Under the pieces are notes generated by a model that worked only from the letters and a program-made list of their open reading frames with translations, searched no databases and had not been told where the DNA came from. 64,000 nt of DNA, from the NCBI RefSeq assembly GCF_023055435.1, contig NW_025963780.1, positions 10,788,001-10,852,000 of the forward strand, in the 5' to 3' direction. Positions 18,792 to 63,121 of this stretch are shown in pieces. The stretch comes from Haliotis rufescens (Eukaryota). Every line of letters begins with the position of its first letter. Position 1 is the stretch's first letter. The position numbers and the translations under genes were made by a program.

Positions 18792-18977
18792 TGACCAGTG
18801 TCCGACCTTATATGCTTTACGTGTCCTTGAAGAGATCTGATTCCGTGAAAGGAAAAGTGTCTCTCAGCGCCTTCTCTGTCGGCGACGAGGCCTCGGAGTA
18901 TCAGCTGTCGGTGTCAGGGTTCACTGGGGATGGCGTTGTGGGCGATGGTTTCAAAACTCTGAATGGAAGCAAGTTCC
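18792..18977 (+). pseudogene. Orphan fragment of a paralogous fibrinogen-related domain, downstream of the stop
   Basis: TSVRPYMLYVSLKRSD...[31 protein letters not shown] aligns to 18274-18476 with synonymous changes and an in-frame indel. Confidence 0.85.
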
Positions 18978-20855: not shown

Positions 20856-23800
20856 CTAGTGCTGGCTGCGGCGCCGACGTCCACACAGCCACCCCGTGCA
20901 CGGCTCTTTCTTCTCCTTCACCGTCAGCTTCACGTTGAGGCACAGCATCTGTTCCCCCGTCGCTGTGTCCACGGCCGTCGCAGTAGCTTCGTAGTTGCCC
21001 TGCAGAGAAGAGGACAAGATGGACGACAAGCAAATTGACAGGACTACAAATTCGATTCAAGTCATTCAAATATACATTGTAAATGCAAGAGAATAAACAG
21101 CCAGTCTAGATTATCCACCGAAACAGATTCCATGTGGCGTAAAGGGCACAATAGCTGTGAAAGTTCTATGAATGGACCGCTGAATATCAGTGATGACACC
21201 AGGTGTTCGCGACAAGGGTAAGCGTGCCCTGCCTACCACTCACACAATTTGCACATACAAGTATTACTAAGTATCTATCGCCTGATGCTGCACAGGAGTA
21301 CTCCTGCCATGCGACGGCCGTCTGTCAAGAAACCAAACAGTCAAGTGATCGATGAAAATCCAGTGACATTTACTGACTTTGTTGTGACTAATAAAAAACA
21401 TTCAAACCCCACTTTTTTGCCGACTAACTCTTGTGTTGCTTGCCAATTTGACTATGTATATGAATCTAGACGTTCAAGGATGCCCTATCTACAAGGTCAG
21501 CTTCACACATGGCCGAGACATTATCTCGGCCGAGTCCCTCCACAAGGAAGAGGTGTGATTCCGCCGAGAGGGAAGGCCAGACTGGTTTGTTCGTTGTTTA
21601 ACACACAGAAGTGTTCCAGTTACATGGCGGTAGTCTGTAAGTAGTCGACGCTAGACCAGACACACCAGTGATGATATACTGAGCAATATGCACGCTGTCG
21701 GGTCACGATGACATGCAGTTAACCAGGTCACCAGGCCTGACCACCTAATCCTCTGAATCGCCTCGTACGACAATAGTGGGTTGCTGGGGATTATCTGCTG
21801 ACCTCGAGGATACCTTGGCAAACTACTGTAACCGTGTTTCATTGAAAAGGGACGTGATTCAGCGAGCCTGATTGATCTGTCCCTAGAAGACAAGTGCCAG
21901 ACACGGCTTTTTACAAGCAGTATGAAGAAGTCGTGAGGACCCTCAGAAATATAATGTCGCCATTTCTAGACAAGAGGTGACCAGCAACAGAACACTGATA
22001 CCTACCAACGTGAGTTCTGCTATGACCATCAAGTTACATCGTCAACTCGATATGTCGCTTCAGACGAAGTTGGTGTTAAAAGGTTTCAATGAAGTTCAAA
22101 TTGGCAATTGACCCCCTAATAAACCAGGGATCTGGGATTTTCACGAGATTACATATGTTTCAGCTACAGCTACAAAACCATTTTTTATTTAAAAACCATG
22201 AGGTAGATTTTTACATTTTGGTGGCAGGCAATTTCATTTTTTTCAACCGTCTGAAGATTTATGGGACAATATATTTGTTTCGATACTATCCCAGCCCCCT
22301 TCCCCTCCACCTCCTAACAGATGTCCTACATTCTTGGGGTCATTGTGGGGGTCTGTGTAAATCACCAACAGGGAAGGGTTTCAAAGATACTACTTGTGTT
22401 TGATGATAGAAAACAATCATCATATAAGGTCCAGAGTGTTCGGGACATCCCGATGGATCAGGGAGGCTTTCAAGATGCAAACACGTTGTGGAAGTCCCAA
22501 CGCGATACACAAGGGGGACGCAGATTCTCAACTCACTTCCGCGAACCAGGACAATATGGAGGGAACGGCCGGCATCTTCAGTACATAGTCCTGGAGGTCG
22601 ATGCTCTGGACTACAGCGGGACAATATGTCGTAATTCCCACAGACGCCAGCATCTGCTGGATCTGGAGCCCGATGTCGCCCATGATGCCGGCCCAATTCT
22701 CCTTCTGCATCGTCGCTAGGAGTGTGCATGTGTCGTCATAGGTGCTAGAAGGAAGAACACAGAAGGGGGATAGTCATGGGATTTCATCTTTCCTTTACAT
22801 TTAAATTTCCATTAAGAACAAAATGTCATTGAATTTTTGATAAATGTGATTTTAATTTCATGTAGAGTGAATATTAAAAAAGTATCAATTTTCACTCTAA
22901 AGCTCACCTGACTGAAAGTTTTTAACATATATTACGTGGCGGTCTTTCAATTCATTGCATGTCCAGGTTAGCTACAGTGTCGTGGCATTATTTTTTTACA
23001 TATTTAGATCTATGATTATGTCAAATGTTATATATTTATGTATAATTATATATTTGACTAACATTTGACATAATAATATATCAAATATCAATCTAAATAT
23101 GTAAAACATAATGCCATATATCTTTAATCGGCATACATGTTAGTCCTGCCCTACAGACTGACATGTTACTCTGTGTATCTTCAGGCTTCCGGTACAACAT
23201 ACGGTAAGTTTGATAGTAATGAAACTGCATAATGCTCAAAGTTTAAGCTTCATTCACTTACACAACCATACATGTACATGTATACATAAGGCTGTGTCAT
23301 GTCACTGGACTTGGTATCTTGGTATATGAACGTTTTATTTCACGATGTTGAGCAATGCATGAGATTATTACATATTATCATCTTTCTCCATTCCATCATA
23401 ATTTTACCCGTCCCATATCTTCGATTGACCATTGATGTTACTATCTTCATCTGATAATTAGTAACTTAACACAGACTTTCTCTCACACGAGTGTTATTTT
23501 ATTGGACAGTGTGTTCAAGAGTCATGCCATTCTAATTCTAATGGCTCAATGGGATTTAATCCAATAGAATGGAGATTTAACGCATTAAATAATCGAGGAT
23601 GATTACCTTACGACAGTTTGTTGTTAAACGCCACACTCAGCAATATTCCAGCTGTATGACGGTGGTCTATAAAAGATCGAATCTGGACCGGACAGTCCAG
23701 TGATTGACATCATGAGCATCGCTCTACGCAATTTGGATTCGATGACATGCAACAACCAAGTCAGTGAGTCTGACCACCCGATCCCGTTAGTCGCCTTTTA

Positions 23801-24894
23801 CGACAAGCAGTCACCTTTTACGGCAAGCATGGGTTTCTGAAGACCAATTCTAAATTCACGGATCACACTCTGACGTATGAACAGGATGCTAGATGTGGGC
23901 CGATGTTCCTCACCATGATCCGACGTGGAAGAGGCAGGGAATGGGGATGTTGAGGAGGAAAGTATCCCTCTTCACGTGCACCGACAACTTCATCTGGTTC
24001 AGCTGCTTCCTCGTCGACGACGCGTTGATGGTGAGGTGCAAGTCGCCGGGGACAACGACAGGCATTGGGGAGATGTCGATTTTGTGGATGGTGAGGCCGG
24101 AATCAGATCCTGGAGTCAAGAGTAGGGCGACACTTATCGTATTCATTGTAAGGAAGAGTGTTTGGAGGAGCATATCGGTGACCTGTACTTGCCCCTTGCT
24201 AATGGCAATGTATCGATACGGGATGACAAGTTAAAATATCAATAGTTAATGCCGCTATCGTTATATTTAGTTTCGGTAGACATGGTAAAGTCCATACATG
24301 GGTAGATTAACTAACTTGACCACTTTATAAATATACTTTGTTCTAAGATATGCCTATATCGAAGCAGAACAGGTTATAACTTTCTATCAATATCACTGTA
24401 TCATCCTCTATCTCTGTTGGAATTTGATAATATGGACCAATGAATACTGTCCTTCAAATATCGGCCAACCGTTGTGTAGAACTTTGACGGATGTCTCGAA
24501 GTAAAAACTTGGTCCCTGCGTATTCCTTCTTTATTCATTATTATTTAACCTCCGATGTGTCGAATCGGATGTGTCGAAATTTAGTTCCCAGTCCCAAACA
24601 TATACTTTCAGCACAAATTTACTCTGAAGATTTCAGAACCATTGTCACTAAATCTACAGATGGTACCTTTGTAGATAGGGCATTAACATCTCAAGATAAC
24701 ATGACCAGATAAGCCACGTTGCTCAAGTTCAACGTTTATTTCGCTGAGATCAAACATCAGCTAATTCCTTAACGCCTAAAATACTGTCATGGTAATTATG
24801 AAATACACATACCACAGTCAGACCATTCCAGCTTTGTGAGATCAGCTGCAGCACAGACCCCGAGCCATAACAACAAACACAGGAGACCCGCCAT
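20856..24894 (-). CDS. GM2A: Ganglioside GM2 activator-like (ML lipid-binding domain) protein, 209 aa; exons 24894-24813, 24109-23914, 22744-22537, 20999-20856
   Basis: Signal peptide MAGLLCLLLWLGVCAAA, then WSDCG, ISPMPVVVPG, IPCLFHVGSCTYDDTC, PSILSWFAEGNY, MLCL. All junctions GT/AG with consistent phases (1,2,0); total 630 nt. Confidence 0.9.
23616..23863 (-). mobile_element. SINE-like family A copy (further copies ~21585-21808 -, 26922-27055 +, 49772-49978 -, 51296-51513 -)
   Basis: Reverse complement of the 1316-1544 sequence. Confidence 0.8.
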
Positions 24895-25587
24895 TGCTGA
24901 TCGTAACATGTGCACTGCTTGTGTGGAACAGTTGTGTCAGACGAACATAATTATCTTATCTTTACAGCTGCTCTGGATACATTATGCTTCACCTCGCCAC
25001 TTAGTCTAGTACATAGGCCCGGAATAAGGATTAGAAGAATATAGCGAAGGTGAGAGATGGGTCATGACGCCCGACCTGTCGGTATAATCGTGACTGAGGA
25101 CATCTTAAGTAAGCCCCTGAGCTCTCGTTCCTTCGTGCAGCCCTCCCTCTAGGTTTCACGACGTCCCGTGCTATATTGTGTTGCAAGCATCCTTTCTGTA
25201 TTAAATATGAAGCGGGGATCATGCAGGGTGTCGTTGTACAAAGCGATCTTAGCGCAAATGTGATCTCCCATACCTTCACACACACTTACTACGACAGTCG
25301 TAGTGCTAAGGTTTTTTGCACAACGGCATATATTGATATATTTCTATCCAGTTTTTCAAGAAAATGTCTTCCCCGGGCAAGGCAGTAGTGTCCTTGTGGG
25401 ATCATGAACCATGTGTGTTACCATACATAAATAACAAATACATAATGTCCACTAACAATTTATTACTTGAATTTAAAATATGCCTTTAGTTTTACAACTT
25501 TCTTGTAAAGCAAATATGCATTCAGCGGCCTATCAATAATCGAGTCTGGACCAGCCCACCCAGTGATCGATATGATGAGCAACGACC

Positions 25588-36198: not shown

Positions 36199-39100
36199 TT
36201 AACTTGCTGCATCGTTGATGGTAAGCTGGGCAAAGCCGATCAGAGCCTTGTCACACGGAGCCTCGTTCTGACCACAACCAGAGTTCTGAAAGGGAGAGTT
36301 GTGATTTCAATCCAAAGTCAAAGATATTACTCATTCTTGTTGTTCACGCTGCAAATAGAAATACTCCAGCTAGGTCATCCAAGCCTGGCTCACCAGTGCT
36401 CACAGCAATCCCCTGTGCAGGCCCTTTAAGTATACGCTACCAGTATTGAGATCACTCAATGTCCCTTTAAGTATAAGCTACCAGTATTGAGATCCCTCAA
36501 TGTCCCTTTTACAAGAAGACCAGCATCACCCCCATGTAGTAGAGAAACCCGGACCACCATCACCTCCCTGTAGTAGAGAACCCGGGACCACCATCATCTC
36601 CCTGTAGTAGGGAAGCTGGGGCCACCATCACCCCCATGTAGTAGGGAAGCTGGGGCCACCATCACCCCCATGTAGTAGAGAAACCCGGACCACCCTTTCC
36701 CCATGTAGTAGAGAAACCTGGACCACCATCACCCCCATGTAGTAGAGAAACCCGGACCACCCTTTCCCCATGTAGTAGAGAAACCCGGACCACCATCACC
36801 CCCATGTAGTAGAGAAGCCAGGACCACCATCACCCCCCTGTAGTAGAGAAACCCGGACCACCATCACCCCCATGTAGTAGAGAAACCCGGACCACCATCA
36901 CCCCCATGTAGTAGAGAAACCGAGACCACCATCACCCCCATGTAGTAGAGAAACCGAGACCACCATCACCCCCCTGTAGTAGAGAAACCAGGACCAGCAG
37001 GACCAGCATCACCCCCATGTAGTAGAGAAGCCAGGACCACCATCACCCCCCTGTAGTAGAGAAACCCGGACCACCATCACCCCCCTGTAGTAGAGAAACC
37101 CGGACCACCATCACCCCCCTGTAGTAGAGAAACCCGGACCACCATCACCCCCATGTAGTAGAGAAACCGAGACCACCATCACCCCCATGTAGTAGAGAAA
37201 CCGAGACCACCATCACCCCCCTGTAGTAGAGAAACCAGGACCAGCATCACCCCCATGTAGTAGAGAAGCCGAGACCAGCATCACCCCCATGTAGTAGAGA
37301 AACCCGGACCACCCTTTCCCCATGTAGTAGAGAAACCCGGACCACCATCACCCCCATGTAGTAGAGAAGCCGGGACCACCATCACCCCCATGTAGTAGAG
37401 AAACCGGGACCACCATCACCCCCATGTAGTAGAGAAACCGGGACCACCATCACCCCCATGTAGTAGAGAAACCGGGACCACCCTTTCCCGATGTAGTAGC
37501 CAAACCCGGACCACCCTTTCCCCATGTAGTAGGGAAGCTTGGGCCACCATCACCCCAAGTGCCGAACTGGGAGAAGCCCGGGGACCAACTGGCACTACTC
37601 ACCAATGCAAACGTCAAGTTCTTCTGATCCTTGTTGTCCAAGATCTTCTGAAGATTTGCTGCCACTGAAACAGTCAGTCAACACTTAGTCCTACTGACTG
37701 GCCTTGCCCAGTACCATGAGTACATGTGAAGGAGTTATGACAGTCATTGCTAAAATCATTTTGTCTTTCTTAGCATATAATAATTCACAGATTTTGTTTC
37801 CCCAAGAAATGTCTGACATAAACACACATCTGACATTGTCCATATTTAGCCATTCTTTTCCAAATGGCTACTCAAAGTGGACTAAACAATGTCATATCTG
37901 GGCAAGGTAATCCAGTAGTGTTGGAGCACGAGACACAGTGTCAGCCTGGTTACACAGTGTCAGCCAGGTTACACAGTGTCAGCCAGGTTACATAATGTCT
38001 GGTTACCCAGTGTCAGCCAAGTTACACAGTGTCAGCCAGGTTACACAGTGTCAGCCAGGTTACATAATGTCTGGTTACCCAGTGTCAGCCAAGTTACACA
38101 GTGTCAGCCAGGTTACACAGTGTCAGCCAGGTTACATAATGTCTGGTTACCCAGTGTCAGCCACGTTACACAGTGTCAGCCAGGTTACACAGTGTCAGCC
38201 AGGTTACACAGTGTCAGCCAGGTTACACAGTGTCAGCCAGGTTACACAGTGTCAGCCTGGTTAAACAGTGTCAGCCAGGTTACACAGTGTCAGCCACGCT
38301 ACACAATGTCAGCCAGGTTACAGAGTGTCAGCCAGGTTACACAAGGTCAGCCACGCTACACAGTGTCAGCCACGCTACACAGTGTCAGCCAGGTTACACA
38401 GTGTCAGCCAGGTTACACAAGGTCAGCCAGGTTACACAGTGTCAGCCTGGTTAAACAGTGTCAGCCAGGTTACACAGTGTCAGCCACGCTACACAATGTC
38501 AGCCAGGTTACAGAGTGTCAGCCAGGTTACACAGTGTCAGCCACGTTACACAGTGTCAGCCTGGTTAAACAGTGTCAGCCACGTTACACAGTGTCAGCCA
38601 GGTTACACAGTGTCAGCCTGGTTACACAGTGTCAGCCTGGTTACACAGTGTCAGCCACGTTACACAGTGTCAGCCTGGTTTAACAGTGTCAGCCACGTTA
38701 CCCAGTGTCAGCCAAGTTACCCAGTGTCAGCCAGGTTACACAGTGTCAGCCTGGTTACACAGTGTCAGCCTGGTTACACAGTGTCAGCCATGTTACACAG
38801 TGTCAGCCAGGTTACACAATGTCAGCCAGGTAACACAGTGTCAGCAACGTTACCCAGTGTCAGCCTGGTTAAACAGTGTCAGCCAGGTTACACAGTGTCA
38901 GCCTGGTTACACAGTGTCAGCCACGTTACCCAGTGTCAGCCTGGTTACACAGTGTCAGCCTGGTTACATAATGTCTGGTTAACGTCTGGCTGGGACCTGT
39001 CTGACCAGTCAGTGATCCTGGCTGGGACCTGTCTGACCAGTCAGTGATCCTGGCTGGGACCTGTCTGACCACTCAGTAATCCTGGCTTGGACCTGTCTGA

Positions 39101-42100
39101 CCACTCAGTGATCCTGGCTGGGACCTGTCTGACCACTCAGTGATCCTGGCTGGGACCTGTCTGACCACTCAGTGATCCTGGCTGGGACCTGTCTAACCCC
39201 TCAGTGATCCTGGCTGGGACCTGTCTGACCACTCACTAACATGCTGTAGACACTCACCCACTATCATGTCCTTGCCATTCACAAGTCCTGCCTCAACCAG
39301 TTCCCTTGAAACACTGTCTGAGGTGTCTGTAAACCAAAAGTTTTACAACTGAGCATGTACATGAAGTTGCAGAAATGGGGCAACTTGTCCTCATCTGTAG
39401 TCAAGATAAGGGAAATACAGGTATCTGCAAAAGAATGTCAAGGAACCTTGACATGGAAACATTCTTTTACCCTCTGCACGCATGTAGAAACTGGGGTTAG
39501 TGCTAAACAATGAGCACATATTTGGTTGAACCTGCTACATGGCATCTGGCATAATTACTATGCAAAATATTCAAATCATAATCCATGAACATAACATGAA
39601 AAGTGTTCTACTATAAATTTGGAAAATACTCTTTTCGGTCAATCAGGGGTTTTAAATCATGATATTGCATATCACTCTTATTGCAAAAGCTGAAGGTAAT
39701 ATTTATATCCACAAACTAACACTAATGTATGGCCTGTGTGAGGCTGTGAACCTACCTTGGCCTGGGGTGAAGTCAAACTTGATGTCATTCAGCTCCTTCT
39801 TGTCATTCCTGGTGGAGAAGGAGGAATCAAACATTGGTCAATCTGGACAACAATACTGTTACAAAGTCTTTGGTCAGTGTGGTCAACAATACTGTTACAA
39901 AGTCTTTGGTCAGTGTGGTCAACAATACTGTTACAAAGTCTTTGGTCAGTCTGGACAACAATACTGTTACAAAGTCTTTGGTCAGTGTGGTCAACAATAC
40001 TGTTACAAAGTCTTTGGTCAGTGTGGTCAACAATACTGTTACAAAGTCTTTGGTCAGTCTGGACAACAATACTGTTACAAAGTCTTTGGTCAGTGTGGTC
40101 AACTATACTGTTACAAAGTCTTTGGTCAGTGTGGTCAACAATACTGTTTCAAAATCTTTGGTCAGTATGGACAACAATACTGTTACAAAGTCTTTGGTCA
40201 GTGTGGTCAACAATACTGTTACAAAATCTTTGGTCAGTGTGGTCAACAATACTGTTACAAAGTGTTTAGTCAGTCTGGACAACAATACTGTTACAAAGTC
40301 TTTGGTATGTGAGACGTGATGGTTAACACCGCTTTGAACAGTATGTCAAACTATGCAGATCCAAGATGTTTAGCCCTTTGTTGGAAGCCACAAGAAACAA
40401 ATCCCATGCCGCCCCAGCCCATGATGATGATCTGGAGAAGCTTCTCACATGCTCAAAGTATCACTAAAGGAAAGTAGTGAGAAGGCTGAGGTGGCAGAGG
40501 ATGTAACATATTTCAGATGGACTTCTTGGAATTTGAAAGATTGTCGTGAATCAAACCCATAAATTGAGAAATAGGCTGAAATATTTTCACCAGATGATGG
40601 AGTAAGTATATACTTCAAAACATGTTCCTCATAATAAAGAAGTTGACATCCATAAATTACTTTCCTAAGGCTGAATCATATTCACATTTCAACAAGACCA
40701 TATTCAGTCAATTATTGAATGTCTTCTGTACTTATTCATGCGAATCTATCTCTCAGATTAGAGCAATTTTCATACAAGTGAACACCAAGTAGCGACTGTC
40801 AGCTGAAGAAAGTGAACACTTCAGCTACTGCTCAAGTCAGATTACGGACAATGCAGGATACAATGTGTGAAGTCCATTCCCTGCCAAAACTAAAAGCGGC
40901 TCCAGACCTTGATGGCACAAAGGATTGGTTGAAGCTTGTAATGAGATGACAAAATGATTCCCTACCTAAGCCGCAGAACAAGGTTGATAGATTGAGACAG
41001 GACAGCTTGCTGGAACAAAAAACACTTGTGTTGATGGATGCAATGCATGACCATGATTACAAAAGGCTTCTGCTTTTCAGATAATCAAGCTGCATTCTTG
41101 TTCAGTGTGAACACATTTGTCTTGGGACCATTTCATATCGTTAACAGCCCAGGGAGCATTACAGAATCCTACAGCAGAACTCTGACGCCAAGCAGTGCCC
41201 ATTATGTGCATGGTGCTGCTACCCACCTTCTGCTCTTGGGCCTCTGCCTGACTGGGCAGCGAGGTGCTGGAGGTCTCCCCGGGGGTGGGGGATGTGGCAG
41301 TCTCCGACGCTGGACCCCCTGGGGCCAGGGAGTTGGGTGTCTGGGCCGGTGCCGTCCCTCCAACATTGTTGGCTGCATCAAGCTGGGAAAGACAATGGTG
41401 AAGGAGTGAATGACTGGGCTGGCTGGGATCACAAACAAACAACACATGTAGCGGGGAAGCTGGTATGGTAAGTATATATGACAACTACTGCAGAAAAGAA
41501 CATTGTTACCCGGGGGTTGATGGGGTCAGAGTCTGCGATCATGGATCATAGATTTACAAGAACACAGCATCCGGTCTCCAGGGCAATTTCAAATTACCAA
41601 CCTTTCATTTTCATAAGGCAATTTTGATTTGCCATGACACTAAGTCTAACGGTCCAATCACAATGCGAGTTACAAACCAGGCTCAATGTTGGGTTGGCGA
41701 TAACAACATGGCAGCCTGTTCAATTGATAACAAGAGTTTGCAAGAATTCAAAGTTGAAAAACTGACTTGACATGCAAAAGAAAACCCTAAAACAATGTTT
41801 TTCATGGATAGGATGTCTTCATGTCCATTACCACTGGCAGTGGCTTTGGTCTCTGGGCAATACAGGTTACCTCCCCTACCCATTTCCGTATCTCGCTGTT
41901 TGATTGGTAGGTAGGTAAAATCTTAATTAATATCAGGTAATTTGATGTTGCAAGAACCACAGGAATGGATCCCAGGATACGTGTAAGTCTGCCAGTGTGA
42001 GGATGAAGTCACAGTAGCCAACTAACCCCGTGTTGGATGTCCCTCACAAGCATACAGGGCACCCGACAAATAAGCCAGTTTAGACAAGGAAAACCAATTC

Positions 42101-45100: not shown

Positions 45101-48100
45101 AAAGAACTTCACAGGGAGGAAGCAAAGCGATGACAGTTCACTTTAGATGTAGTAATGCAGGATAAATAAATCTGTGAGCGTGGGATCCGGTGGAATGGAT
45201 GTAGGGGAAGACCAAATTGTTTCCCTCAACATTCCACCCCGTGGAGGAAGTGACCGAGCCACCATCCAATCCAGCAGTTGGTTAAGTCCCAGGTGCAGGT
45301 CTAACTCCAACAAAGGGTCTGCAGTGAGAGGATCTGACCGAGCCACCATCCAATCCAGCAGTTGGTTAAGTCCCAGGTGCAGGTCTAACTCCAACAAAGG
45401 GTCTGCAGTGAGAGGATCTCACCGAGCCACCATCCAATCCAGCAGTTAGTTAAGTCCCAGGTGCAGGTCTAACTCCAACACAGGGTCTGCAGTGAGAGGA
45501 TCTGACCGAGCCACCATCCAATCCAGCAGTTGGTTAAGTCCCAGGTGCAGGTCTAACTCCAACACAGGGTCTGCAGTGAAGTACAACGGCAAGACCTGGG
45601 AGATAGAGCCACGTGTATGAGACCAACGAGGTGTAGTGGCGTCCCCTGAAGGAGCCAAAGGCGGATGAGAGGTAGTCGTAGTCACTGGCAATAAAGGCCT
45701 GTGCATATGCAGTGTAAGGGGATGCTGGAGGTAAACTGATTGCTGATTGAAATACCAGAGGCACTGGAGAAATCAATGGAGTCACGGTACCTGGAGGTGC
45801 CAACATAGGTATTGTGAAAACTGGAGGTGACGGAGGAGTCACCTGGGTCATGTATGATGCGTACATGGATTGCATTCAAATATGGAGTATGGAACGAGCC
45901 CAAACCAGGCGGCATGAGATGCGGTGGCACTGCGAGTGCCACAGACGACAGTGGGGAGGTACTGCTCCAATAGTAATGATTGTGCGTAGTTGGCTCCTCA
46001 GTGTCAATGTGATCAGCTATCTCCGAAGGAAGTCGGGGCAGTGTCCCTGTGATCAGCAATCTGGGGATGCCTGCAGGCATTTTGGGTGTGTCGCTTTCTC
46101 AAAACCCTGATATATAAAGCGAAGTCAATGGAGGAGAGATTTCGGTAAAACAATTGATGCAACGGGGGTATGAATCCTTTGCTGATTTATTGCCACGGCA
46201 TTGTGAGCAATGGGACATATAATTTCTAAGAAATAGTGTCTAAGCAGATTAGACACACATGTCAACAAAGAAAGACGGGCATGTAATTATAACTCAAACT
46301 TTTGGAAACTTGACGAGAGAAATTTCGATATAAAGAGTATAATTATACACTTAAAAAGCCCAGAATAGAAAAGTATTTAGTACATGAAACAAGAGCTAAG
46401 CTAGGCATTTTGAAATATCAAAGCACAAGACACGTAAACATGAAGTAGTAAAACAAGATGGTGACAGGTACAACACATGCATGAAGAAAGAGCAGGAATG
46501 AGCCAATGTCAGGCAAAAATTATGCTAACATATGCCTGAAAAGACCACCCTGGTATGCCACACTATAATCTACATAATTTATAACATATTGGTTATCAAA
46601 GGATCAGTAAAAGGATAGGCAAAGGATGCTATCTGGTTCTTCAAAATGGGGAGCTTTGTTCTCAAAAGTCTGTTCAGTCCGATGACTAACAGTGATGTGA
46701 GTATATGTGACCTGGCCACTTCCGGTCACGTGGTAGCTGTGGGAGGAAGGGAGCTACACAACTAGTGGGTACAACAACTTCTGTAGCCAGGACCTCTCAC
46801 AGCTACGTCTCCAAAGTAAAAAAACAGCAGTAGAAGCATTAAACATTGTTAAGGTAGTAATGCTGGATAACATAAAAAGAATTGCTGTAGCAGATCACTC
46901 GGGGTGCATGTGGTTTAATGCGTCCATTTATGCGAGCCTGTGGCTTGTGGTATAAATCCTATCATGGGACACATAAAACCACTTATCATACCTCCATGTC
47001 AGAATGATGAGATCTGATTCGTCCACGTGATCGTGATAAAATGCTTGGATGGTAATAAATTCTTCAGCAGGGGAATAAATCTCTTATACCCCGCCACGAG
47101 CAGTACAGGCTGCTCATGCATTTCTGAGAGAAAAGAAATCCCTTATACCCCGCTTCAAAGCAAATAGCCACACGCTTTTTCCGAGTCAATGGAAGTTAAC
47201 CTCAGCTCAATCAAATAGTTGTTTTCTAACAATTTTAAATTTCTGTTCATTCTTTTACAATGTCACATATCATGTCAGTAAGTTAAATTCATTGCAGAAG
47301 GGTCACGAGGGGTACATGGGCTTTAGGCGTTACAAATTATAATGTACCTCTCGTGATACTGCTTCAACTCAAGTGACAAGTGATTTCTAAAAGTCAAATA
47401 ACAGGATTTGAATCAGAGCAATGGTAAAGATGGGCATTTAAATGAAAAAAGAACCATATTCTACAAGTATTTTCACTTTTATAATGCTTTCGCAACTGGC
47501 TACCGACCTTTTTTCTGGCTCTCGCTTGAGGCAGTCGCTGATCATCTTCCGGAACACCTTACTGTAGCCCTTGTACTGCTCCTTGTCATCGGCCCCGGTG
47601 TCCAGACTCGGGGGGTCATTCTGCAGGGTCAGCATCAGCACCTGGGTGGAGGGAGGGAGGGAGGGGTGAGGGATGGAGGCAGTAAAAAGATAGCCAGTAA
47701 TAGACAGCTAGCAATACAGTCAATCCGACGATCGGCTTCATCCGACACTAATAATAGGAACCGATTAAATCAGTGCTATTTAGACCCTTTAATCCATCAG
47801 TCTCGCACTTAGACTCCGACACACCTAATTTGCAACAAATTACTGAAATCACTCATTAATCAGTCTCGATAATCCAACACAGTGATCAGCATACTCCATG
47901 GTCATCTGCCTGCGAGTACACAGCCTGTGTCATACAGTCATACAGTCCGTAACAGTTCTTTTGTGTTAAGCTTTAGAAGTTGCATGATTAGAAAACATAT
48001 TCCGCTATCAATGTAACATAACAATATGAATATTTCATTTTTATTTTTTTTATTACGTGTTTGTATTGTTATCTATCGTGTAGTTGTCAGATTTTCTATC

Positions 48101-54100: not shown

Positions 54101-56310
54101 AGCAATTTTAGAATTTGTTAATACCAGTGTTTGAAAATATACACTCATTTTTCTCACAGTGACAGGAGGAAGCTAACAATAAGTGTGAAAATGTTATGAT
54201 GTTATGAGGGCTTCATTTTCCGAGCAAAAAACATTGAAAAAGTCCTGAGTTATCCCTCTTAGATTATGACGTAAATTAGTGCCAATTTAACCATGTTAAC
54301 TGGATCACTGTCTAGTCACAACGCAAAAGATATCAAGTACCAGTTTATTGTCTTCTCAGTCACGCTTTTGGAAAACGAAATAATTGTATTTAGAGTAATT
54401 GAGCCTCGTGTTGTATTTTGAACAGCGGGGCACCAAACAAAATCGTAGTCTGCGCATCTAAGAAGCTAGACGCACACACCTGTACCTACACCATGTGAAA
54501 CAGGTCTAATAAAGTCTTATGACATCATTCCTTTATCACTTGGCACCAGTGACATCAAATTGCAAGAGACAAAAGCCATGGTGTTTTTATTATGAAAATA
54601 GAACTCTCGGTAAATGTGAAAAATATCAACAGATTTAATAAATAAGTTACTTGTGACATTTGTATTGTTTTGGCACTGAAACTACTAGGTAAATACTTTT
54701 CTGTTGAAAAAGTACAACAAAAATAGGTGCATTTATGTGTGAACTTACCCTTTTAACATTTCAATCAAATATGAACTTAATATGCCCAAGCAGCACAAAA
54801 TAATTGTGTAAAGGCAATATATCTTATGCATATTATGTGATATAAAGCTTCTCACGCCTGTTCTGAACTAATTATAAATGTTATAGATGCTGATTTCTTT
54901 GATTAAAACAAAAGTTAAGTGATTTCAGAGCAGAATTGGAAATGGACAGTGATAACTTATTTGTTCACAGATCTTGTGTGTTTCTTTGATCCTGAGGGTT
55001 TGTTGTTCTTTGCATACTAGAGTGGTTATCATGAGATATCTGACGCTAACACAAATAATTAGCGCTTGTTTACCTAGTGACCGACTGTTTACCTTGATGA
55101 GTGCAAGACATTTTTCGCTGCAAAACGCAATGAAAATTGTACAGATTTTCCTTTAAACGTAGGATTAATTTGTGAAAAAGATGAGATAGCTATCCAACTC
55201 ACAAATATCCCTAAGGATTGTAATGGGGTACCTTACCAAGGATCGTAAAGGGGTGTTTGATTAGAAAGGGTTATCTAATCCTAATGATTTGTAAGGGGAT
55301 CTTACCTGAGGATAGATTTGGGGGTAAACCTACCCTAACCTTAACACAACCAACACTTTTAGGGCATGGCTCAAAAGTACACAAGATCAGTGAAGCGAGA
55401 GACTTATTTAGCAGTCGGAGCCAAATAGTGCTATAAGCTGCACCCAGTAAACTGCAGTTTTTCTTCTTGCAGTACTTAAAAACATGGAGTATTATTAGCT
55501 AAGTTTTTCTGGAACAACATGAACAAAAGAACTTTTGCAAGATTGTTGTATATCCCAAATGATCATTAAGGAATTGTACCACAAGTACTTGAGTATCATA
55601 TAGCATATTTATGAGAGAGAGAGTAGTATATACCCATCCCATATACCATCAATCTATATATTTTAGAATAAAATATTCCATTTGCCCAGTACATAACAAT
55701 TTATCATTTTCAGTTCACTTAAATTATCTGGGTACATGTGTTACATGTTTTGTCAAGGTCACTATAACTATATGTAAATTTGAGGACAAATATCTCAGAC
55801 AAATGCTACAACATTGCCATATGTGCCACTCTGTCGAGCTCTCGTTTACAAGACGTGCGTAACCTTGACTTCATGCCATGGGTTTATCTGGCGAGGTCGG
55901 GGTGAACACGGGGACAGGAAGTGATACAAGAACTACACAATTTGAATCAAAAACATGTGCGAAACATTCGTGCTTACATAAGAAATTAACTTCATAAGTG
56001 ACAGACATGGTATTTACGCATTCCAACATAGTTAAAGACTTGTCCGGAGGAGATGTAAGCAAATTACATGACAAGCATGGAGTTTGAATGACAGGCAATT
56101 AAAAACAACCCGAGTGACATCATAAACATGTCACAGAATCCTGCTGTCAGTATGTGGCATAGAGGTTGTCTTAAACCAAATCTAAGACAATATGAGTGTG
56201 TTTTGATTCCGACATGACAAATGGTTAATCCACACTTTACCTATTACGTCCAAGAGCTCATAATCGTCTTTCAAAATCGACCAAGTCACTGCTGCAGCTC
56301 CTTCGGCCAT
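36199..56310 (-). CDS. OXSR1: STE20-family OSR1/SPAK (OXSR1/STK39, frayed-like) kinase, 522 aa; exons 56310-56241, 53353-53241, 51821-51713, 50799-50658, 50158-50103, 48958-48849, 48608-48507, 47641-47508, 44678-44630, 43298-43239, 42654-42532, 42304-42275, 41382-41227, 41009-40966, 39808-39756, 39326-39258, 37664-37603, 36285-36199
   Basis: [112 protein letters not shown] (S-motif), CCT domain [19 protein letters not shown]...LIGFAQLTI. All 17 introns GT/AG with continuous phase; sum 1569 nt. Confidence 0.95.
36520..37560. repeat. 34-bp minisatellite (cccccatgtagtagagaaacccggaccaccatca) x~30, kinase intron 17
   Basis: Period 34 (tagtag at 36841 and 36875). Confidence 0.95.
37932..38975. repeat. 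19-bp minisatellite (cagtgtcagccaggttaca) x~55, intron 16
   Basis: Period 19; explains the 19-aa periodic ORFs in all three frames. Confidence 0.95.
38987..39236. repeat. 32-bp minisatellite (ctggctgggacctgtctgaccactcagtgatc) x~8, intron 16
   Basis: Direct inspection. Confidence 0.95.
39834..40305. repeat. 36-bp minisatellite (tggtcagtgtggtcaacaatactgttacaaagtctt) x13, intron 14
   Basis: Direct inspection. Confidence 0.95.
43730..43970 (-). mobile_element. SINE-like family A copy with complete 5' end
   Basis: - strand begins cccatgaagatctgagttagaattggtcttcagcaaccc. Confidence 0.8.
44501..44607. repeat. 53-bp tandem duplication x2
   Basis: caggacttgtatt at 44501 and 44554. Confidence 0.9.
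44936..46837. mobile_element. ~1.9-kb element bounded by ~130-bp inverted repeats, kinase intron 8 (possibly a deleted DIRS-like retroelement or foldback element)
   Basis: 44936-45066 is the reverse complement of 46708-46837; interior is relatively GC-rich, decayed and ORF-like. Confidence 0.55.
45251..45578. repeat. 84-bp tandem repeat x~4 inside the inverted-repeat element
   Basis: Unit starts at 45251, 45335, 45419 and 45503. Confidence 0.95.
47714..48200. mobile_element. Degenerate Tigger/pogo-like non-autonomous element
   Basis: Starts tacagtc; repeated (a)atccgaca motifs with inverted tgttggatta near the right end. Confidence 0.35.
48648..48714. repeat. (GAGT)n microsatellite, ~17 units
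   Basis: Direct inspection. Confidence 0.95.
50830..50993 (-). mobile_element. tRNA(Asp-like)-derived SINE family C with 10-bp TSD
   Basis: - strand head tagcctagtggttaaagcgttcactcgtcacgccgaagaccagggttcaattccc (A box, GTC loop, B box); TSD tcatgaacag at 50820-50829 and 50994-51003. Confidence 0.85.
52300..52740 (+). pseudogene. Old Tc1 transposase remnant (N-terminal half), kinase intron 2
   Basis: [52 protein letters not shown] resemble the Tc1 HTH/GRPR region; stops and frameshifts present. Confidence 0.7.
53621..53933. mobile_element. hAT-like MITE
   Basis: Imperfect TIR cagggtatgaaa / tttcgaacactg; caaatac on both flanks. Confidence 0.55.
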
Positions 56311-56859
56311 TTTGGCGCTGTATATCGACCTTCACCTTGATCAAGGCCGAAAGCAAGGTGAGCACATGTTTCTAAGGGAGGTAATCGAAAGCATGGATTT
56401 ATTTGAATCCGATAGGAAATAAGTACATATTTGAGGGGGAGGGGGGTTAATTTCATAAAGCTCATATGACTACGTGTAATCTTAAATCAACCAATGACAG
56501 TCCTCATAAAATTAACTTCATTTCTGTTTTGGGACCATATAATGAAAAACAATTACTGAATGTGAATGTATTTGTTTAATCATATCATGTTTTAGCAGCA
56601 CGACTCTCATTCTTAAAAGGCTCTTGTGTAGCCCTGACTCAATTATTTTCAGATATGCAAGTTCCTTATATACAAGCCATGTCATGTCACACAAGTCTCA
56701 CGTATATGTAATGTATTAATTATGTCATACAACTCCATAATGTGTGAATATATCAGAACCTGCATGTCCATCAATTCCGCGTTAATGATACTGTCATAAT
56801 GTCATATCCTGTCCACCATGCACTATGCTATGCTGAAGTCGTTATGTCATACACTGTCC

Positions 56860-58732
56860 ATGGTGCCGCACTTTGTGATGAGATCGTAATGTCATATGCT
56901 GTCGATGATGCTCCTTGTTGTAGTGACGTCACAATGTCATACCCTGTAGATGATGCTCCTCGTTGTAGTGACGTCACAATGTCATACCTTGCCGATGATG
57001 CTCCTTGTTGTAGTGACGTCACAAAGTCACACCCTGCCGATGATGCTCCTCGTTGTAGTGACGTCACAATGTCATACCTTGCCGATGATGCTCCTCGTTG
57101 TAGTGACGTCACAATGTCATACCCTGTCAATGACGCTCCTTGTTGTAGTGACGTCGCAATGTCATACCCTGTCGGTGATGCTCCTCGTTGTAGTGACGTC
57201 ACAATGTCACACCCTGTCAATGATGCTTCTCGTTGTAGTGACGTCACAATGTCATACCCTGTCAATGATGCTCCTTGTTGTAGTGACGTCACAATGTCAT
57301 ACCCTGTCAATGATGCTCCTCGTTGTAGTGACGTCACAATGTCACACCCTGTCAATGATGCTCCTTGTTGTAGTGACGTCACAATGTCATACCCTGTCAA
57401 TGATGCTCCTTGTTGTAGTGACGTCGCAATGTCATACCCTGTCGATGATGCTCCTTGTTGTAGTGACGTCGCAATGTCATACCTTGCCGATGATGCTCCT
57501 CGTTGTAGTGACGTCACAATGTCATACCCTGTCAATGATGCTCCTTGTTGTAGTGACGTCACAATGTCATACACTGTCGATGATGCTCCTCGTTGTAGTG
57601 ACGTCGCAGTGTCATACCTTGCCGATGATGCTCTTCGTTGTAGTGACGTCACAATGTCATACCCTGTCAATGATGCTCCTTGTTGTAGTGACGTCGCAAT
57701 GTCATACCCTGTCGATGATTCTCCTCGTTGTAGTGACGTCGCTATGTCATTCCTTGTCGATGATGTTCCTTGTTGTAGTGACGTCACAATGTCATACCCT
57801 GTAGATGATGCTCCTCGTTGTAGTGACGTCGCATTGTCATACCCTGCCGATGATGCTCCTCGTTGTAGTGACGTCGCTTTGTCATACACTGTCGATGATG
57901 CTCCTTGTTGTAGTGACGTCGTAATGTCATACCTTGCCGATGATGCTCCTCGTTGCAGTGACGTCGCATTGTCAAACCCTGTCGATGATGCTCCTTGTTG
58001 TAGTGACGTCACAATGTCATACCCTGTAGATGATGCTCCTCGTTGTAGTGACGTCGCTATGTCATTCCTTGTCGATGATGCTCCTTGTTGTAGTGACGTC
58101 GCATTGTCATACCCTGCCGATGATGCTCCTCGTTGTAGTGACGTCGCATTGTCATACAAGGTAGATGATGCTCCTCGTTGTAGTGACGTCGCAATGTCAT
58201 ACCTTGCCGATGATGCTCCTCGTTGCAGTGACGTCGCATTGTCATACCCTGTCGATGATGCTTCTTGTTGTAGTGACGTCGCAATGTCATACCTTGCCGA
58301 TGATACTCCTCGTTGCAGTGACGTCGCATTGTCAAACCCTGTCGATGATGCTCCTTGTTGTAGTGACGTCACAATGTCATACCCTGTCAATGATGCTCCT
58401 TGTTGTAGTGACGTCGCATTGTCACACCCTGTCGGTGATGCTCCTCGTTGTAGTGATGTCACAATGTCATACCCTGTCAATGATGCTCCTTGTTGTAGTG
58501 ACGTCACAATGTCACACCCTGCCGATGATGCTCCTCGTTGTAGTGACGTCGCATTGTCACACCCTGTCGATGATGCTCCTTGTTGTAGTGACGTCACAAT
58601 GTCACACCCTGTAGATGATGCTCCTTGTTGTAGTGACGTCGCATTGTCACACCCTGTCGGTGATGCTCCTTGTTGTAGTGACGTCGCATTGTCATACAAG
58701 GTAGATGATGCTCCTCGTTGTAGTGACGTCGT
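56860..58732. repeat. 45-bp tandem array, 41 well-conserved units plus degenerate 5' units, each with a CRE-type motif
   Basis: Unit gatgatgctcctYgttgtagtgacgtcRcaWtgtcataccctgtc; manual count 18 x TGACGTCA, 22 x TGACGTCG, 1 x TGATGTCA; no indels. Confidence 0.97.
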
Positions 58733-60219
58733 TATAGTGATGTCAAAACTAATAACTGTCAGTCATGTTTCTTCCTAAATGTGTATATTTGTGAATATGT
58801 TGATAATATATTTTCCTTGAAATAATAGCCTTTAATGTTATGTAGTCATGTTCGTCCATTTAAAGTTTACCCAGTGGACATGGTCAAGACAAGCGTTCAT
58901 TCTTTTCAATGTTTTTTTGGTACGGCGATTATTCAAGACATGCGCTTTTTCAAATTCAGACATTTTATCAAGGATTTGTGGTACATTCATATTGAAGGTA
59001 GCCTAGCTACATCTTCTTGTATAAAAAGCGGTAGTGCAAGACGTCATTTGTGTCACCCAAACTCTGAGCCGATTTTTCTGGTAAATCCTTCATTCAATAG
59101 TAAATTTGTATACTTATTTGGCACTGCCCTAAGGCTATTTAAAATATAGCTTTTGGCTCAACGTATTTAACACAATAACGTTATGTTAACTTAACATAAA
59201 CAACATTTGTTTTGTTTCCAAGCGTTATACACGAACTGTATACCGGAGGTTATTTGTATAGTTGGCGGTCGTTTACATTTAGCTGAAAACATCACCAAAT
59301 GAGTTTGTTATGAAATGAATTGTGTTGTAGTACGTTTACAGTTTGTATCTATAAGCAACCAAAAGTATAAATTAAATAATAAGTAGTCTACGGAAAACGG
59401 GTGTGTCTGCTATGTGCGTGTCTTGCGGGACTGATATTGTACTTTTGCGAATATGTTACCTTAGGGAACGTTCATCCCCATGTGTAAATTTCGTTAGGAA
59501 CGGCATCGTCCGAAAAATCCGGTTCAGTGTATTCGTCGTATCAACATTTTGTCAAAGAAAACGTTTTTAATTGTGTGTGTGGTCCTTGGTGTAAATACAC
59601 TTTATTATGTATTTTTCCACACTTTATTATGGCAATTGCCAGTTACATATTATGCTGCCAACTGAGCATGTCAGCAAAGTTTACTAATTCGCTTAACGCT
59701 GATGCGAATTATTTGCACTTCTTTGTTACCGGAGCAGGCATGAGGCTACCATGTATCAGCGGACATGATGTATTTGTTTAGCGGGTAACCCGATGTCATT
59801 TATTTACCTTTGCGGCAATGTGGCAAAAATGACAGGGAGATCGCAACTGTGTTTTCCTCTTGCATTTTTCCCAGAAGCCCCAATTTGGTAAATTATTGTC
59901 ACTTCTTTGTTACACAAAGCATTATTAGTTTTCAAATTTCATGGGAGAAGATAGTAAACCGTAAATATTAAATTACAGGTTTGTAAATCTGAGCAGACAA
60001 TTCAGGGAAGTGCATAAAATACATTTTAGTTGAAGCATTAAATGTTGGACAGTAATTAGAGAGGTCTTCCTGTATAGAACCAGACCAAAACTAATAATGA
60101 TAATAAGAAAACCCCGCTGCTGTGGTTGTAAGAAATGAAAACAAACTGAAAACGCCGATCTAAATTTGGAGAGGATGGGTTTACTGTTAAAGGCATTTAA
60201 ATGCCATCCCAAACATGCC

Positions 60220-60310
60220 TTCACACGACTTGTAGTGGCGGAAGTAGAAGGTGGTCACATGTCAAAAGTAACCAATCAAAATGTTGGAGAAGTTCTGTCA
60301 TGGCGGCAAA
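60220..60310 (+). promoter_or_regulatory. Putative core promoter of the ankyrin gene
   Basis: ETS-type GCGGAAGT at ~60238 and YY1-type ATGGCGGC at 60300, just upstream of the candidate first coding exon; motif-only evidence. Confidence 0.35.
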
Positions 60311-60394
60311 GTGGTGTACTGCTTCCTGTAAAATGCAACTCCTGTAGAGGTTCTTCATGTATTGTAGGGATTAATTGACACTTTTTGAACTGTC

Positions 60395-63121
60395 ATGAAA
60401 CTGGGCAGTCTAGTTGTCCAGCAACTGGAGGAAGAGGTTTGTTTGCAACACACTGTGTGCTAGGATTGAAACTTTTGAGGCCATGATGCAGTTCGATACG
60501 CATATCGCCGTGACTAAGCTGTCTGCTTCAACTTGCAGGTCGACTTTATTGCTCTAACCTTATGCCACATGCCGGAACGGTGACTCGTGGCACTTCCGAT
60601 GTAAATGTTATTTGTGTAGATAGTTATTTCCCATATTTATAAACATATGAAATGATTGAAACCATGTTTATTACAACTGTCATTTGACTCTTTCGACTCT
60701 TTTGACAGTTTCGTAGCATTGTGTATCTTACACTGAATGTAGAACATATTTGGCCTTGTGTTCATCCAAATCGTATGGGTCGTTATTTTACCATCAAGTG
60801 CTTATTTTTATGATGTATGTGAAAGCTTTCGTTTTGTTGTTATAACCAAAATGCATGTCAATATTTTTGCTCTATGTGATAGATAATAACAGCCCCACCC
60901 ATCAACTAAAGACTTAGTCAACTTTATGTTCAATTGCCATGATTGCTGTTCAGAAAAAGAAGGTTGACTCATAAGTTAATGAATGTGATAAGGATTTAAT
61001 ACCAGGCTAAGGAGAGTCCTACATGCTCTATAATTCATCATGTTTCTTAGCTTTGTCTGCACCATACCCGTGCTTGCGTAAGTGGTAAATGTCGAAGACC
61101 TACTTAAGGCTGTCCAATTACATTAAGCTGACACACCATGATATAACTGCAATACTGTTAACTATTATTTATCTTATTTGATCAGGTGTTCAAGTTTGGT
61201 TTCTTTGTTGGTTGTGAGTCATTTTACCCAAACAGTTGGCATGTTGCTCCTAATACCAACCAGTGGTTTGTCTGGTCCAGACTTAAGTACTGACAGGTAC
61301 CGTATAGCTGGGATATTATTGATAGCAGTGTAAAGCAACATCTAAAGCAACTAAGCTGAAAGTAATGTGTATGTAATTTAGAGAAGATTAAGCAATTTAG
61401 ATGGGTAATTTAATTCCATCAGGTAAAACTAGATAAGTAGCTACAGAGAAGTGGAAGTGCAGAAAATGTTCCAAGTTGTCCATGGTTAAATAAGTAATTG
61501 TTAGTAATTATTGATAACCTGTGAGAAGTTAATGTATTTTGAAGATTAAACTTTTGACAATAACTATGATACTTGTCAAATCTGTTGTCAAAAGTACTTT
61601 GTCTGGTGACTGGTAACATAAAGTTTGATTAGGGTATTCTGCCAAGACATCGAAACCTGGGGACAATGTCAACCTTATTCTATGCAAGTGATTGAACCCG
61701 TGAAGATCTGGGTTAGAATATGTCTTCAGCAACCCATGTTTGTCGTAAGAGGGGACTCTTGTCGTAAGAGGCACCTAACAGGATTGGTTGGTGGTTAGAC
61801 TCGCTGACTTGGTTTGATGCATGTCATCGTATCCCAGTTGCGTGGATTGATGATTTACAAACACACATTTGCCAGACATTAGGGGTCTACAGAATAAAAT
61901 AATGAATATATGACAGTTATGGTGATATTTATAAAATGAATAATGCCTGTGATTGCCATCTTATAAGGAAAGGTTTCTGAATCTTTGTCATTTATTTAAG
62001 CAAGATGTGAATATAAATAGCTACATGTAATAGACGTGATATTAGATCACCTGTTTTCCAAGAAAACTAATTCATGTGATTTTTGTATGTTTAATTGTTT
62101 TCATTTTCCAACAAAAAATATAGATGAATCATTGAACCTTTGCCTCACACAGTGTGGATACATGTAGCTTATACATCTACAGAACCAATAACAACTTCCT
62201 CATTGAACATATTGAAATGTTTTCCTGTATCCAGTGAACCACTGTTGTTAGGCACTGTTGTGTTTGTTCCTCACAGTATGGGTGGTGGTAGGGATCATTA
62301 CAGGTGGGGACATAAATACCAAGCACAGTTTTGTGCATTATGTCTGGTAGTGATAACGCAGGGTTAGAAACTAACAGTTTTTGTCCACTAGTCCTTATAA
62401 TGATAACATTTAGCAAAACCCTTAAAATGGGCCAGTTTCTACTAGTCCTTAGGATACCTTTACTATTGGGCAGTTAGGTAAGGACTACAGGACTAGTGCC
62501 AATTTCTAACGCTGTAATGCAGATTAGATTTTCAACTACGTGACAATGGTGGGCAAATATGGGTAAACAAGTTTTGGTCAAATGTTTTGAATGCAATGTT
62601 CTTATGTTCTTAAATTCAGAGATGTTCTAACATCTAATTCAATGCAATATGATCATGATGATATCAAACTGGTCACATGTGCAAATGTATCATAACCTAT
62701 ACATGTTGGACTTCAAATTGGGAATGATAGCAAACATTTGCTGCAGATCTTCAGCTAGAAAACTGAGATAACCAAGACATGTCCCTGTGCAAATGTATCT
62801 GTTCTAGACTACTAGGAATGTGAACTGAATTGTATTGCTTTGTTTTAAGTCATACATACATATGGGATTGATGCAAAATGATGGTGACCTAGTTTCTCTG
62901 AATATCAACTTACAGTTTGAGGTCTTCCAGGACACATGACCCGGTGTTGCTTCATGGTTACACTTAAACATCACTGATGAACATGTGATATGTTGATGTC
63001 GTCAGTGGAGTAGATAATCCTGGTCCTCTTGTTGCAGTCTCCTCTGGTGCAGGCTATTTTCCATGGGGACCCAGATGAAGTTCGAGCCCTGTTATACAAA
63101 AAGGAAGATGTCAACTATCAG
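60395..63121 (+). CDS. ANKRD28: PP6 regulatory ankyrin repeat subunit (ANKRD28/44/52 family), 5' part; confident exon 63038-63121, candidate first exon 60395-60436; continues beyond the window
   Basis: ttgcag|SPLVQAIFHGDPDEVRALLYKKEDVNYQ|gtacat matches the family N-terminus (PSLVQAIFNGDPDEVRALIFKKEDVN). Candidate exon 1 MKLGSLVVQQLEEE|gtttgt is phase-compatible but less certain. Confidence 0.8.
61696..61852 (+). mobile_element. SINE-like family A, 5' portion
   Basis: cccgtgaagatctgggttagaatatgtcttcagcaacccatg... Confidence 0.75.
62359..62514. mobile_element. Small hAT-like MITE
   Basis: TIR cagggttagaaa / tttctaacgctg, internal actagtcc/ggactagt motifs; TSD weak. Confidence 0.5.

What the first reader, a model, noticed from the sequence alone, without database searches (positions are those of the whole stretch)
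56860..58732. 41-copy CRE array between the divergent OSR1/SPAK and PP6-ankyrin promoters
Seen: a 45-bp unit with GTGACGTC in 40 of 41 copies (18 full TGACGTCA palindromes, mostly kinase-proximal; 22 TGACGTCG, mostly distal). The core CpG is retained while other positions vary. The array starts ~550 bp upstream of the kinase ATG and ends ~1.7 kb before the candidate ankyrin ATG. Established: TGACGTCA is the CREB/ATF site, its binding is CpG-methylation sensitive, and WNK-OSR1/SPAK controls cation-chloride cotransport in osmotic stress. Inference: a natural multimerised cAMP/stress-responsive enhancer or CREB sink whose copy number could tune osmoregulatory gene expression.
Basis: partly seen in the sequence, partly recalled or inferred. 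Interest (0 to 1): 0.75.

Follow-up and report, generated by a model that had tools for sequence, protein, structure and literature searches.

The report
Abalone promoter minisatellite carrying CRE motifs
A 41-copy, 45-base tandem repeat carrying a CREB-binding motif sits between two back-to-back abalone genes; it is likely an ordinary non-coding minisatellite that multiplied one chance motif, and any effect on those genes is untested.

Summary
The counts are exact: 41 in-register 45-bp units (56889-58733), with 18 TGACGTCA, 22 TGACGTCG and 1 TGATGTCA. The animal is an abalone: the kinase exons match all 522 residues of Haliotis rufescens OSR1. RNA contigs confirm the candidate ankyrin exon 1 splice.

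For a regulatory role: the interval is CpG-undepleted (o/e 0.9-1.0 against 0.38 in both gene bodies), a second organism has the array at the same place, and TGACGTC is modestly conserved (p about 0.03, post hoc).

Against it: 41 copies are one motif multiplied, in a window with six other long arrays. The full 8-mer is not conserved (p 0.47). All four CpGs of the unit carry one transition allele each. The two degenerate edge units lack the CRE. Neither gene's own promoter has a TATAWAW box. Forty sites cannot titrate the roughly 10,000 or more expected genome-wide.

Both strands are open reading frames but show no coding signal. Verdict: a real, probably accessible, promoter-side minisatellite. 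The enhancer reading is possible but unshown (about 0.25); the sink reading is rejected.

The parts
56889..58733 (.). Homogenised minisatellite: 41 units of 45 bp, mean 3.2 differences from consensus, no indels; TGACGTC in 40 of 41; all 18 full CREs lie in the 10-bp palindrome GTGACGTCAC
56799..56888 (.). Two degenerate edge units in the same register (30 and 33 of 45 matches to consensus) that lack the CRE (TGAAGTCG, TGAGATCG)
56239..56310 (-). First coding exon of the OSR1/SPAK-like kinase; the gene runs down to about 36202
56311..56798 (-). Inferred kinase promoter / 5' leader: CCAAT, G-rich box and YY1-like motif (motifs recalled), no TATAWAW; TSS not mapped
58734..60240 (.). Single-copy, CpG-undepleted spacer; the 800 bp next to the array is its least conserved part against organism B; holds TATAAAA (59020) and a lone GACGTCA (59040)
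60240..60436 (+). Ankyrin-gene promoter (ETS-, CCAAT-, YY1-like motifs, recalled) and exon 1 (ATG 60395, 14 codons), spliced GT-AG to exon 2
63038..63121 (+). Ankyrin-gene exon 2, in frame with exon 1; weak Pfam Ank hit (E=0.038). The PP6-subunit (ANKRD28/44/52) label is recalled, not tested
56748..58778 (+). Incidental open frame across the array (676 aa stop to stop; a second, 644 aa, on the minus strand at 56828-58762); no coding signal

Best explanation
This is a non-coding 45-bp minisatellite in the CpG-undepleted interval between two divergent abalone genes; it likely arose in place at this one locus, is likely turned over by unequal exchange and gene conversion, and likely multiplied a single chance CRE without selection for enhancer function. 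Shown: array anatomy, gene boundaries, CpG content, free reshuffling of variants, and presence at the same place in a second organism. Inferred: low germ-line methylation, in-place origin (from the CRE-less edge units), single-locus status (right flank only), and neutrality. CREB/ATF probably can bind some units, but binding at TATA-less promoters 0.6-1.6 kb away would be expected to give little cAMP induction (by analogy with mouse neurons).
For: (1) The window holds six other long tandem arrays, with equally long conserved runs: 7-12 columns in the four non-coding ones against 9 here, p=0.22. (2) 22 of 28 tested pairs of common variant columns show all four combinations, the pattern expected from intra-array exchange. 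(3) The full 8-mer is not conserved (20 mismatches, p=0.47-0.49), and the non-CRE block GTTGTAG is nearly as conserved as the half-site (p 0.08-0.09 against 0.08-0.10). (4) Some 7-column window is this conserved in 65% of column permutations. (5) The edge units lack the CRE and carry G at the column that makes TGACGTCA, so the palindrome is probably derived by a CG-to-CA change. (6) Rough extrapolation from this one window predicts about 600 TGACGTC-bearing arrays per genome, about 10 of them within 1 kb of a TSS. (7) The flank next to the array is the fastest-diverging part: 22 substitutions in 795 bp against 13 in 1501 bp, p=0.0006, from 35 of 38 differences listed. (8) Base rate: 163 of 10,264 gene-proximal human VNTRs were expression-associated (PMC8024321).
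Against: The longest near-invariant run in the unit is exactly AGTGACGTC: 1 mismatch, p=0.006-0.010 with post hoc boundaries, and p=0.025-0.035 for TGACGTC. The array lies in CpG-undepleted DNA where CREs could be bound. It is present in organism B with the last unit's CRE and no listed difference. Edge units about 30% diverged suggest the locus is old. A TATAAAA lies 289 bp downstream of the last CRE. The genome-wide estimate rests on one repeat-rich window.
Confidence: 0.62

Rival explanations
1. A co-opted, multimerised CRE enhancer (a promoter VNTR): CREB/ATF dimers would occupy the units and raise or tune transcription of OSR1 and/or the ankyrin gene, with copy number and the share of full palindromes as the dial.
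For: TGACGTC in 40 of 41 units; core conserved at p about 0.03; full palindromes enriched on the kinase side; CpG o/e 0.89 in the unique flank, P=3e-7 against the gene-body rate; shared with organism B. TGACG half-sites and distant CREs can function (PMC1796609 passages).
Against: Ascertainment: the array was noticed because the motif is intact. The full CRE is not conserved and the edge units lack it. No TATAWAW in either gene's promoter; in mouse neurons CRE/TATA-less or distal sites are bound but not induced (PMC5740062 passages). There are no expression, binding or copy-number data. The osmotic link is borrowed from vertebrates: none of the 15 listed of 22 papers is on abalone OSR1.
Confidence: 0.25
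2. A CREB sink: the array would titrate CREB/ATF away from other targets.
For: High local density of sites.
Against: 18 full and 40 half sites against about 10,000-25,000 full and about 2.4 million half sites expected in 1.8 Gb (genome size of a congener from PMC5439488). Summed contig depth over the last two units in organism B is about 18 times single-copy, against 1e4-1e6 for dispersed repeats in the ankyrin intron. The tool warns that this depth is no copy number, so it is an order-of-magnitude contrast only.
Confidence: 0.03
3. The array is a coding or transcribed exon (repeat protein or lncRNA), like the mucin-type arrays elsewhere in the window.
For: Open frames on both strands; an ATG at the first degenerate unit on the plus strand.
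Against: 7 of 28 variant alleles are synonymous in each frame, against 7.2 and 9.0 expected; P(no stop) is 0.53 and 0.17; 4939 of 5000 shuffled units have at least one open frame. The plus frame has no homologues at 30-1154 aa. The 180-aa minus-frame query gave 169 hits, best 44% identity; the 6 read are unrelated periodic repeats. RefSeq OSR1 of four Haliotis species starts at the window's ATG. The two RNA-type contig sets and one small-RNA run show zero depth at 58644-59555, while ankyrin intron pieces appear at depth 3-9 (the tool warns that a hole proves nothing).
Confidence: 0.04
4. The array is the internal repeat of a mobile element or one member of a dispersed satellite family.
For: Molluscan short arrays often ride in Helitron-like elements (recalled, not checked).
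Against: The right flank is one continuous contig at flat depth in organism B. No terminal inverted repeats or hairpin were seen among the repeats listed for either flank. No other copy of the unit occurs in the window. In-register degenerate units point to local origin. The left flank's copy number was not tested.
Confidence: 0.06

Closest known systems
Promoter-proximal VNTRs / eVNTRs (Bakhtiari et al. 2021, PMC8024321; abstract and passages read)
   Same: Tandem unit of 6-100 bp upstream of a gene, proposed to act through multiplied transcription-factor sites.
   Different: eVNTRs are defined by length polymorphism associated with expression; neither is shown here. This array (1.85 kb) is far longer than their median allele (48 bp) and mostly lies outside their 500-bp promoter window.
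HCMV major immediate-early enhancer 19-bp CREB/ATF repeats (PMC6116278, passages read)
   Same: Naturally repeated CRE-bearing units upstream of a promoter.
   Different: The viral repeats are interspersed with NF-kB and Sp1 repeats in an enhancer with shown cAMP/PKA response. Here there are 41 head-to-tail cellular units with no shown activity.
Canonical CRE/TATA CREB target promoters (PMC5740062, PMC1796609; passages read)
   Same: TGACGTCA and TGACG sites in CpG-undepleted upstream DNA.
   Different: The sites lie 0.6-2.4 kb from the kinase ATG and at least 1.6 kb from the ankyrin start, and neither gene's promoter has a TATAWAW. TSS-proximal bias of CREs was not seen in the three invertebrates surveyed in PMC1796609, so distance counts for less here.
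Hypervariable minisatellites with variant-repeat (MVR) mosaics (recalled)
   Same: Interspersed variant units, all allele combinations present, polarity along the array, degenerate edge units.
   Different: Population length variation is not measured here.

Membership tests
Minisatellite (MVR type) | Head-to-tail units of 10-100 bp with reshuffled variant repeats | tested here: met
   41 units of 45 bp; 22 of 28 column pairs show all four combinations
eVNTR | Copy-number polymorphism in the population | not testable with these tools
   Only contigs of other samples are available; word shares show array words in at least 3 other samples but give no length
eVNTR | Allele length associated with expression of the neighbouring gene | not testable with these tools
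   No paired genotype and expression data
eVNTR | Within 500 bp upstream of the TSS | tested here: inconclusive
   First CRE is 614 bp from the kinase ATG; kinase TSS unmapped; at least 1.6 kb from the ankyrin start
cAMP-inducible CRE enhancer | Full or half CRE sites | tested here: met
   18 full sites; 40 of 41 units with TGACG
cAMP-inducible CRE enhancer | Unmethylated core CpG | tested here: inconclusive
   Proxy only: flank CpG o/e 0.89 against 0.38 in gene bodies; no CpG hypermutability in the unit, 4 of 8 against 13 of 37 columns, p=0.34; no bisulfite data
cAMP-inducible CRE enhancer | TATA box at the target promoter within 300 bp of a CRE | tested here: not met
   No TATAWAW at the kinase or ankyrin promoter; the TATAAAA at 59020 has no shown transcript
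cAMP-inducible CRE enhancer | Motif under purifying selection | tested here: inconclusive
   p=0.03 for the 7-mer, 0.47 for the 8-mer, 0.65 for any 7-column window
cAMP-inducible CRE enhancer | CREB occupancy and reporter activity | not testable with these tools
   No ChIP, ATAC or reporter data
ETS-CRE composite element (PMC3464117, listing and start of abstract only) | GGAAGTGACG overlap | tested here: not met
   0 matches in the window
Coding repeat exon | Synonymous excess, homologous protein | tested here: not met
Dispersed satellite / TE-internal array | Multi-copy flanks or terminal structures | tested here: not met
   Right flank single-copy in organism B; no terminal repeats listed; left flank copy number and the whole genome untested

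The most novel reading that the evidence does not exclude
A cellular minisatellite has been co-opted as a 41-fold CRE enhancer, a natural version of a multimerised CRE reporter. It drives cAMP- or stress-inducible transcription of abalone OSR1, or of an inducible transcript from the TATA box at 59020, and the kinase-side enrichment of perfect palindromes together with copy number acts as a heritable dial on stress tolerance.
Probability: 0.15. Interest if true: 0.62.

Novelty: new member of a known kind. Interest (0 to 1): 0.27.

Why it matters
If neutral, it is a useful caution: a minisatellite turns one chance motif into dozens, so motif count is not evidence of function. If functional, it would be an unusually pure natural CRE multimer in an invertebrate, beside the kinase that controls cation-chloride transport, in a farmed animal. 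It would then be an easily PCR-typed candidate marker for stress tolerance and a direct test of how site number and palindrome quality set CREB output.

Tried and rejected
Genome and collections: no whole genome is held, so the genome-wide copy number of the unit was not measured. A metagenome pattern scan gave 0 matches. Rfam gave 0 matches in 54-64 kb.

Sequencing runs: no RNA holder was listed, which is no evidence on expression. The small-RNA run gave 1 read, in the intron.

Coding reading: rejected. Pfam hits of the two array frames were repeat-summed artefacts with 0 passing stretches.

Hairpin-driven expansion: four units fold no better than shuffles (z=-0.93), although neighbouring palindromes can pair.

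Methylation decay of the unit's CpGs: not supported (p=0.34).

Cryptic TATA/Inr promoter at 59020-59049: spacing of 26 bp is off-canonical, and 2 such pairs occur in the window against 1.2 expected. Kept only as a lead.

My first guess of amphioxus was wrong, so one search was uninformative.

Literature: no paper on this locus or on a cellular CRE minisatellite appeared in the listings (0 papers). The library is limited to open-licence papers, and no supplements were read.

Earlier scan notes: nothing for this place or sequence.

Full report
OBSERVATION. The array is as described. It has 41 units at exact 45-bp spacing from 56889 to 58733 without indels: 18 carry TGACGTCA, 22 TGACGTCG and one TGATGTCA (one out-of-register match at 58737 was dropped afterwards). 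A unit pattern matches 41 times against 0 in 100 shuffles and nowhere else in the window. Fourteen of the 18 palindromes lie in the 20 kinase-side units (p=0.002). Two further in-register units at 56799 and 56844 match the consensus at 30 and 33 of 45 positions and lack the CRE.

CONTEXT. A kinase exon finds Haliotis rufescens OSR1-like as best hit. The window's exons, 56310 down to 36202 on the minus strand, account for all 522 residues of that protein in a loose tblastn tally, and differ at 2 residues from H. cracherodii and at 31-34 from H. rubra and H. asinina. The animal is therefore red abalone or a very close relative. All five RefSeq proteins begin at the window's ATG. On the plus strand, two RNA-type contig sets (X17, organism A; X18, organism C) show a GT-AG joint from 60436 to 63038. 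The PP6-subunit label is recalled and was not tested. The first CRE is 614 bp from the kinase ATG and the last is 1664 bp from the ankyrin ATG. The window holds six other long arrays, two of them coding mucin-type.

NOT CODING. Of 28 distinct variant alleles, 7 are synonymous in each frame, against 7.2 and 9.0 expected. The absence of stops has probability 0.53 and 0.17, and 4939 of 5000 shuffled units have an open frame. The plus frame has no homologue at 30-1154 aa. A 180-aa part of the minus frame gave 169 hits, best 44% identity; the six read are unrelated periodic repeats. Three RNA-type runs show no depth at 58644-59555; the tool cautions that holes prove nothing.

CHROMATIN PROXY. CpG o/e is 0.38 in the two gene bodies, 0.89 in the unique right flank (P=3e-7 at the gene-body rate), 0.71 in the kinase promoter and 1.0 in the array. 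Against over-reading it, a WGBS study of a congener calls abalone methylation widespread rather than mosaic, and finds most differentially methylated regions in repeats (PMC8277243, passages). Within the unit each of the four CpGs has exactly one transition allele, found in 10, 20, 1 and 19 copies; CpG columns are not hypermutable (4 of 8 against 13 of 37, p=0.34). The core CpG differs only in how far its allele spread, and 10 of the 28 alleles are singletons.

IS THE CRE SELECTED? The evidence is mixed. With allele frequencies reassigned at random to columns, TGACGTC gives p=0.025-0.035, AGTGACGTC 0.006-0.010, TGACG 0.08-0.10, the full 8-mer 0.47-0.49 and the neighbouring non-CRE GTTGTAG 0.08-0.09. 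Some 7-column window is as conserved in 65% of permutations; the 16-column block 27-42 gives p=0.03, one of four sizes tried. The longest near-invariant run (9 columns, covering the CRE core) has p=0.22, and the four other non-coding arrays have runs of 7-12 (which recovered 40 of the 41 units). Motif boundaries were chosen after seeing the data, and the array was picked because the motif is intact. The edge units have G at the column that completes the palindrome, so TGACGTCA is probably the derived state (inference). Variants recombine freely (22 of 28 column pairs), as expected from unequal exchange or conversion (established for minisatellites; recalled).

OTHER GENOMES. Organism B (run X14, read at about 87%; kind not on record, and it behaves as DNA) gives one contig over 58706-61001 with 38 substitutions and 22 gap letters. 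It runs into the last unit, with contigs piling on the last two units. The array is therefore at the same place in a relative about 1.7% diverged. The flank is flat at single-copy depth. Unit depth is about 18 times that, against 1e4-1e6 for dispersed repeats in the ankyrin intron; this is a coarse contrast only. The 795 bp next to the array carry 22 of the 35 listed substitutions (p=0.0006; 3 of 38 were not listed). Word shares imply that at least 27-46% of array 31-mers are present in three other organism A samples (X1, X5, X6); the bound is only 4% for X7. Copy number could not be measured.

CHANCE. At window composition a 45-bp unit contains TGACGTC with p=0.004. Extrapolating 7 arrays per 64 kb to 1.8 Gb and 29,449 genes (congener figures, PMC5439488 passages) gives about 600 such arrays, about 10 within 1 kb of a TSS, and 1-2 with the full 8-mer. 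This is rough, since it rests on one window, but it shows that a few such cases are expected per genome. The same arithmetic rejects a sink: 18 sites against 10,000-25,000.

MECHANISM. Most likely (0.62) a local 45-bp tandem duplication persisted long enough for its edge units to diverge by about 30%, one unit type carrying TGACGTC was amplified and homogenised, and a CG-to-CA change made about half the copies palindromic. CREB/ATF binding is plausible, since half-sites can function and methylation blocks binding (PMC1796609, passages). But in mouse neurons CRE/TATA-less and distal sites are bound without being induced (PMC5740062, passages), and neither promoter here has TATAWAW. The same survey found no TSS-proximal CRE bias in three invertebrates, which weakens the distance argument. 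The rival, a co-opted enhancer, stands at 0.25. One lead for it is a TATAAAA 289 bp past the last CRE, with a lone GACGTCA and an Inr-like TCATTT 26 bp on; this is off-canonical, is 1 of 2 such pairs against 1.2 expected, and has no transcript shown.

COMPARISON AND VERDICT. It is a member of the variant-repeat minisatellites. It resembles promoter eVNTRs (163 of 10,264 human gene-proximal VNTRs, PMC8024321) and the CREB-binding 19-bp repeats of the HCMV enhancer (PMC6116278), but the features that define those (polymorphism linked to expression, shown induction) are untested here. No paper on this locus appeared in the listings. An earlier scan note on a CRE-like minisatellite in a diatom shows that such motif-bearing arrays recur; I did not test it. 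New member of a known kind; interest 0.27.

Noticed in passing
window 59020-59049: TATAAAA, a lone GACGTCA (the only one in 52.5 kb outside arrays) and an Inr-like TCATTT within 30 bp, 289 bp downstream of the last CRE; a possible cryptic or inducible plus-strand promoter, with no RNA contig in the runs laid.
   Followed up: partly
window 1555-4464 and 13915-18662 (+): Two long 24/48-bp Ser/Thr-rich mucin-type coding arrays; a PAN-domain exon at about 12582-13019 and a fibrinogen C-terminal domain at 17838-18662 flank the second, suggesting PAN-mucin-fibrinogen proteins.
   Followed up: partly
window 5718-6308 (-): DDE_3 transposase fragment (Pfam E=7e-12).
   Followed up: no
window 61120-61161, 61696-61852, 62365-62514: Very high-copy dispersed repeat pieces in ankyrin intron 1 (contig depth 1e4-1e6), probably SINE- or MITE-like.
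   Followed up: no
window 36518-40306 and 45244-45579: Five minisatellites (34, 19, 32, 36 and 84 bp) packed into introns at the 3' end of the kinase gene.
   Followed up: partly
window 21000-25000 (-): Small exons that look like a GM2-activator/ML-domain gene (recalled resemblance; no Pfam hit for the two frames scanned).
   Followed up: partly
window 56310-60395: Head-to-head OSR1/SPAK and ankyrin-repeat gene; human OXSR1 with ANKRD28 and STK39 with ANKRD44 share chromosomes (recalled), hinting at an old linkage.
   Followed up: no
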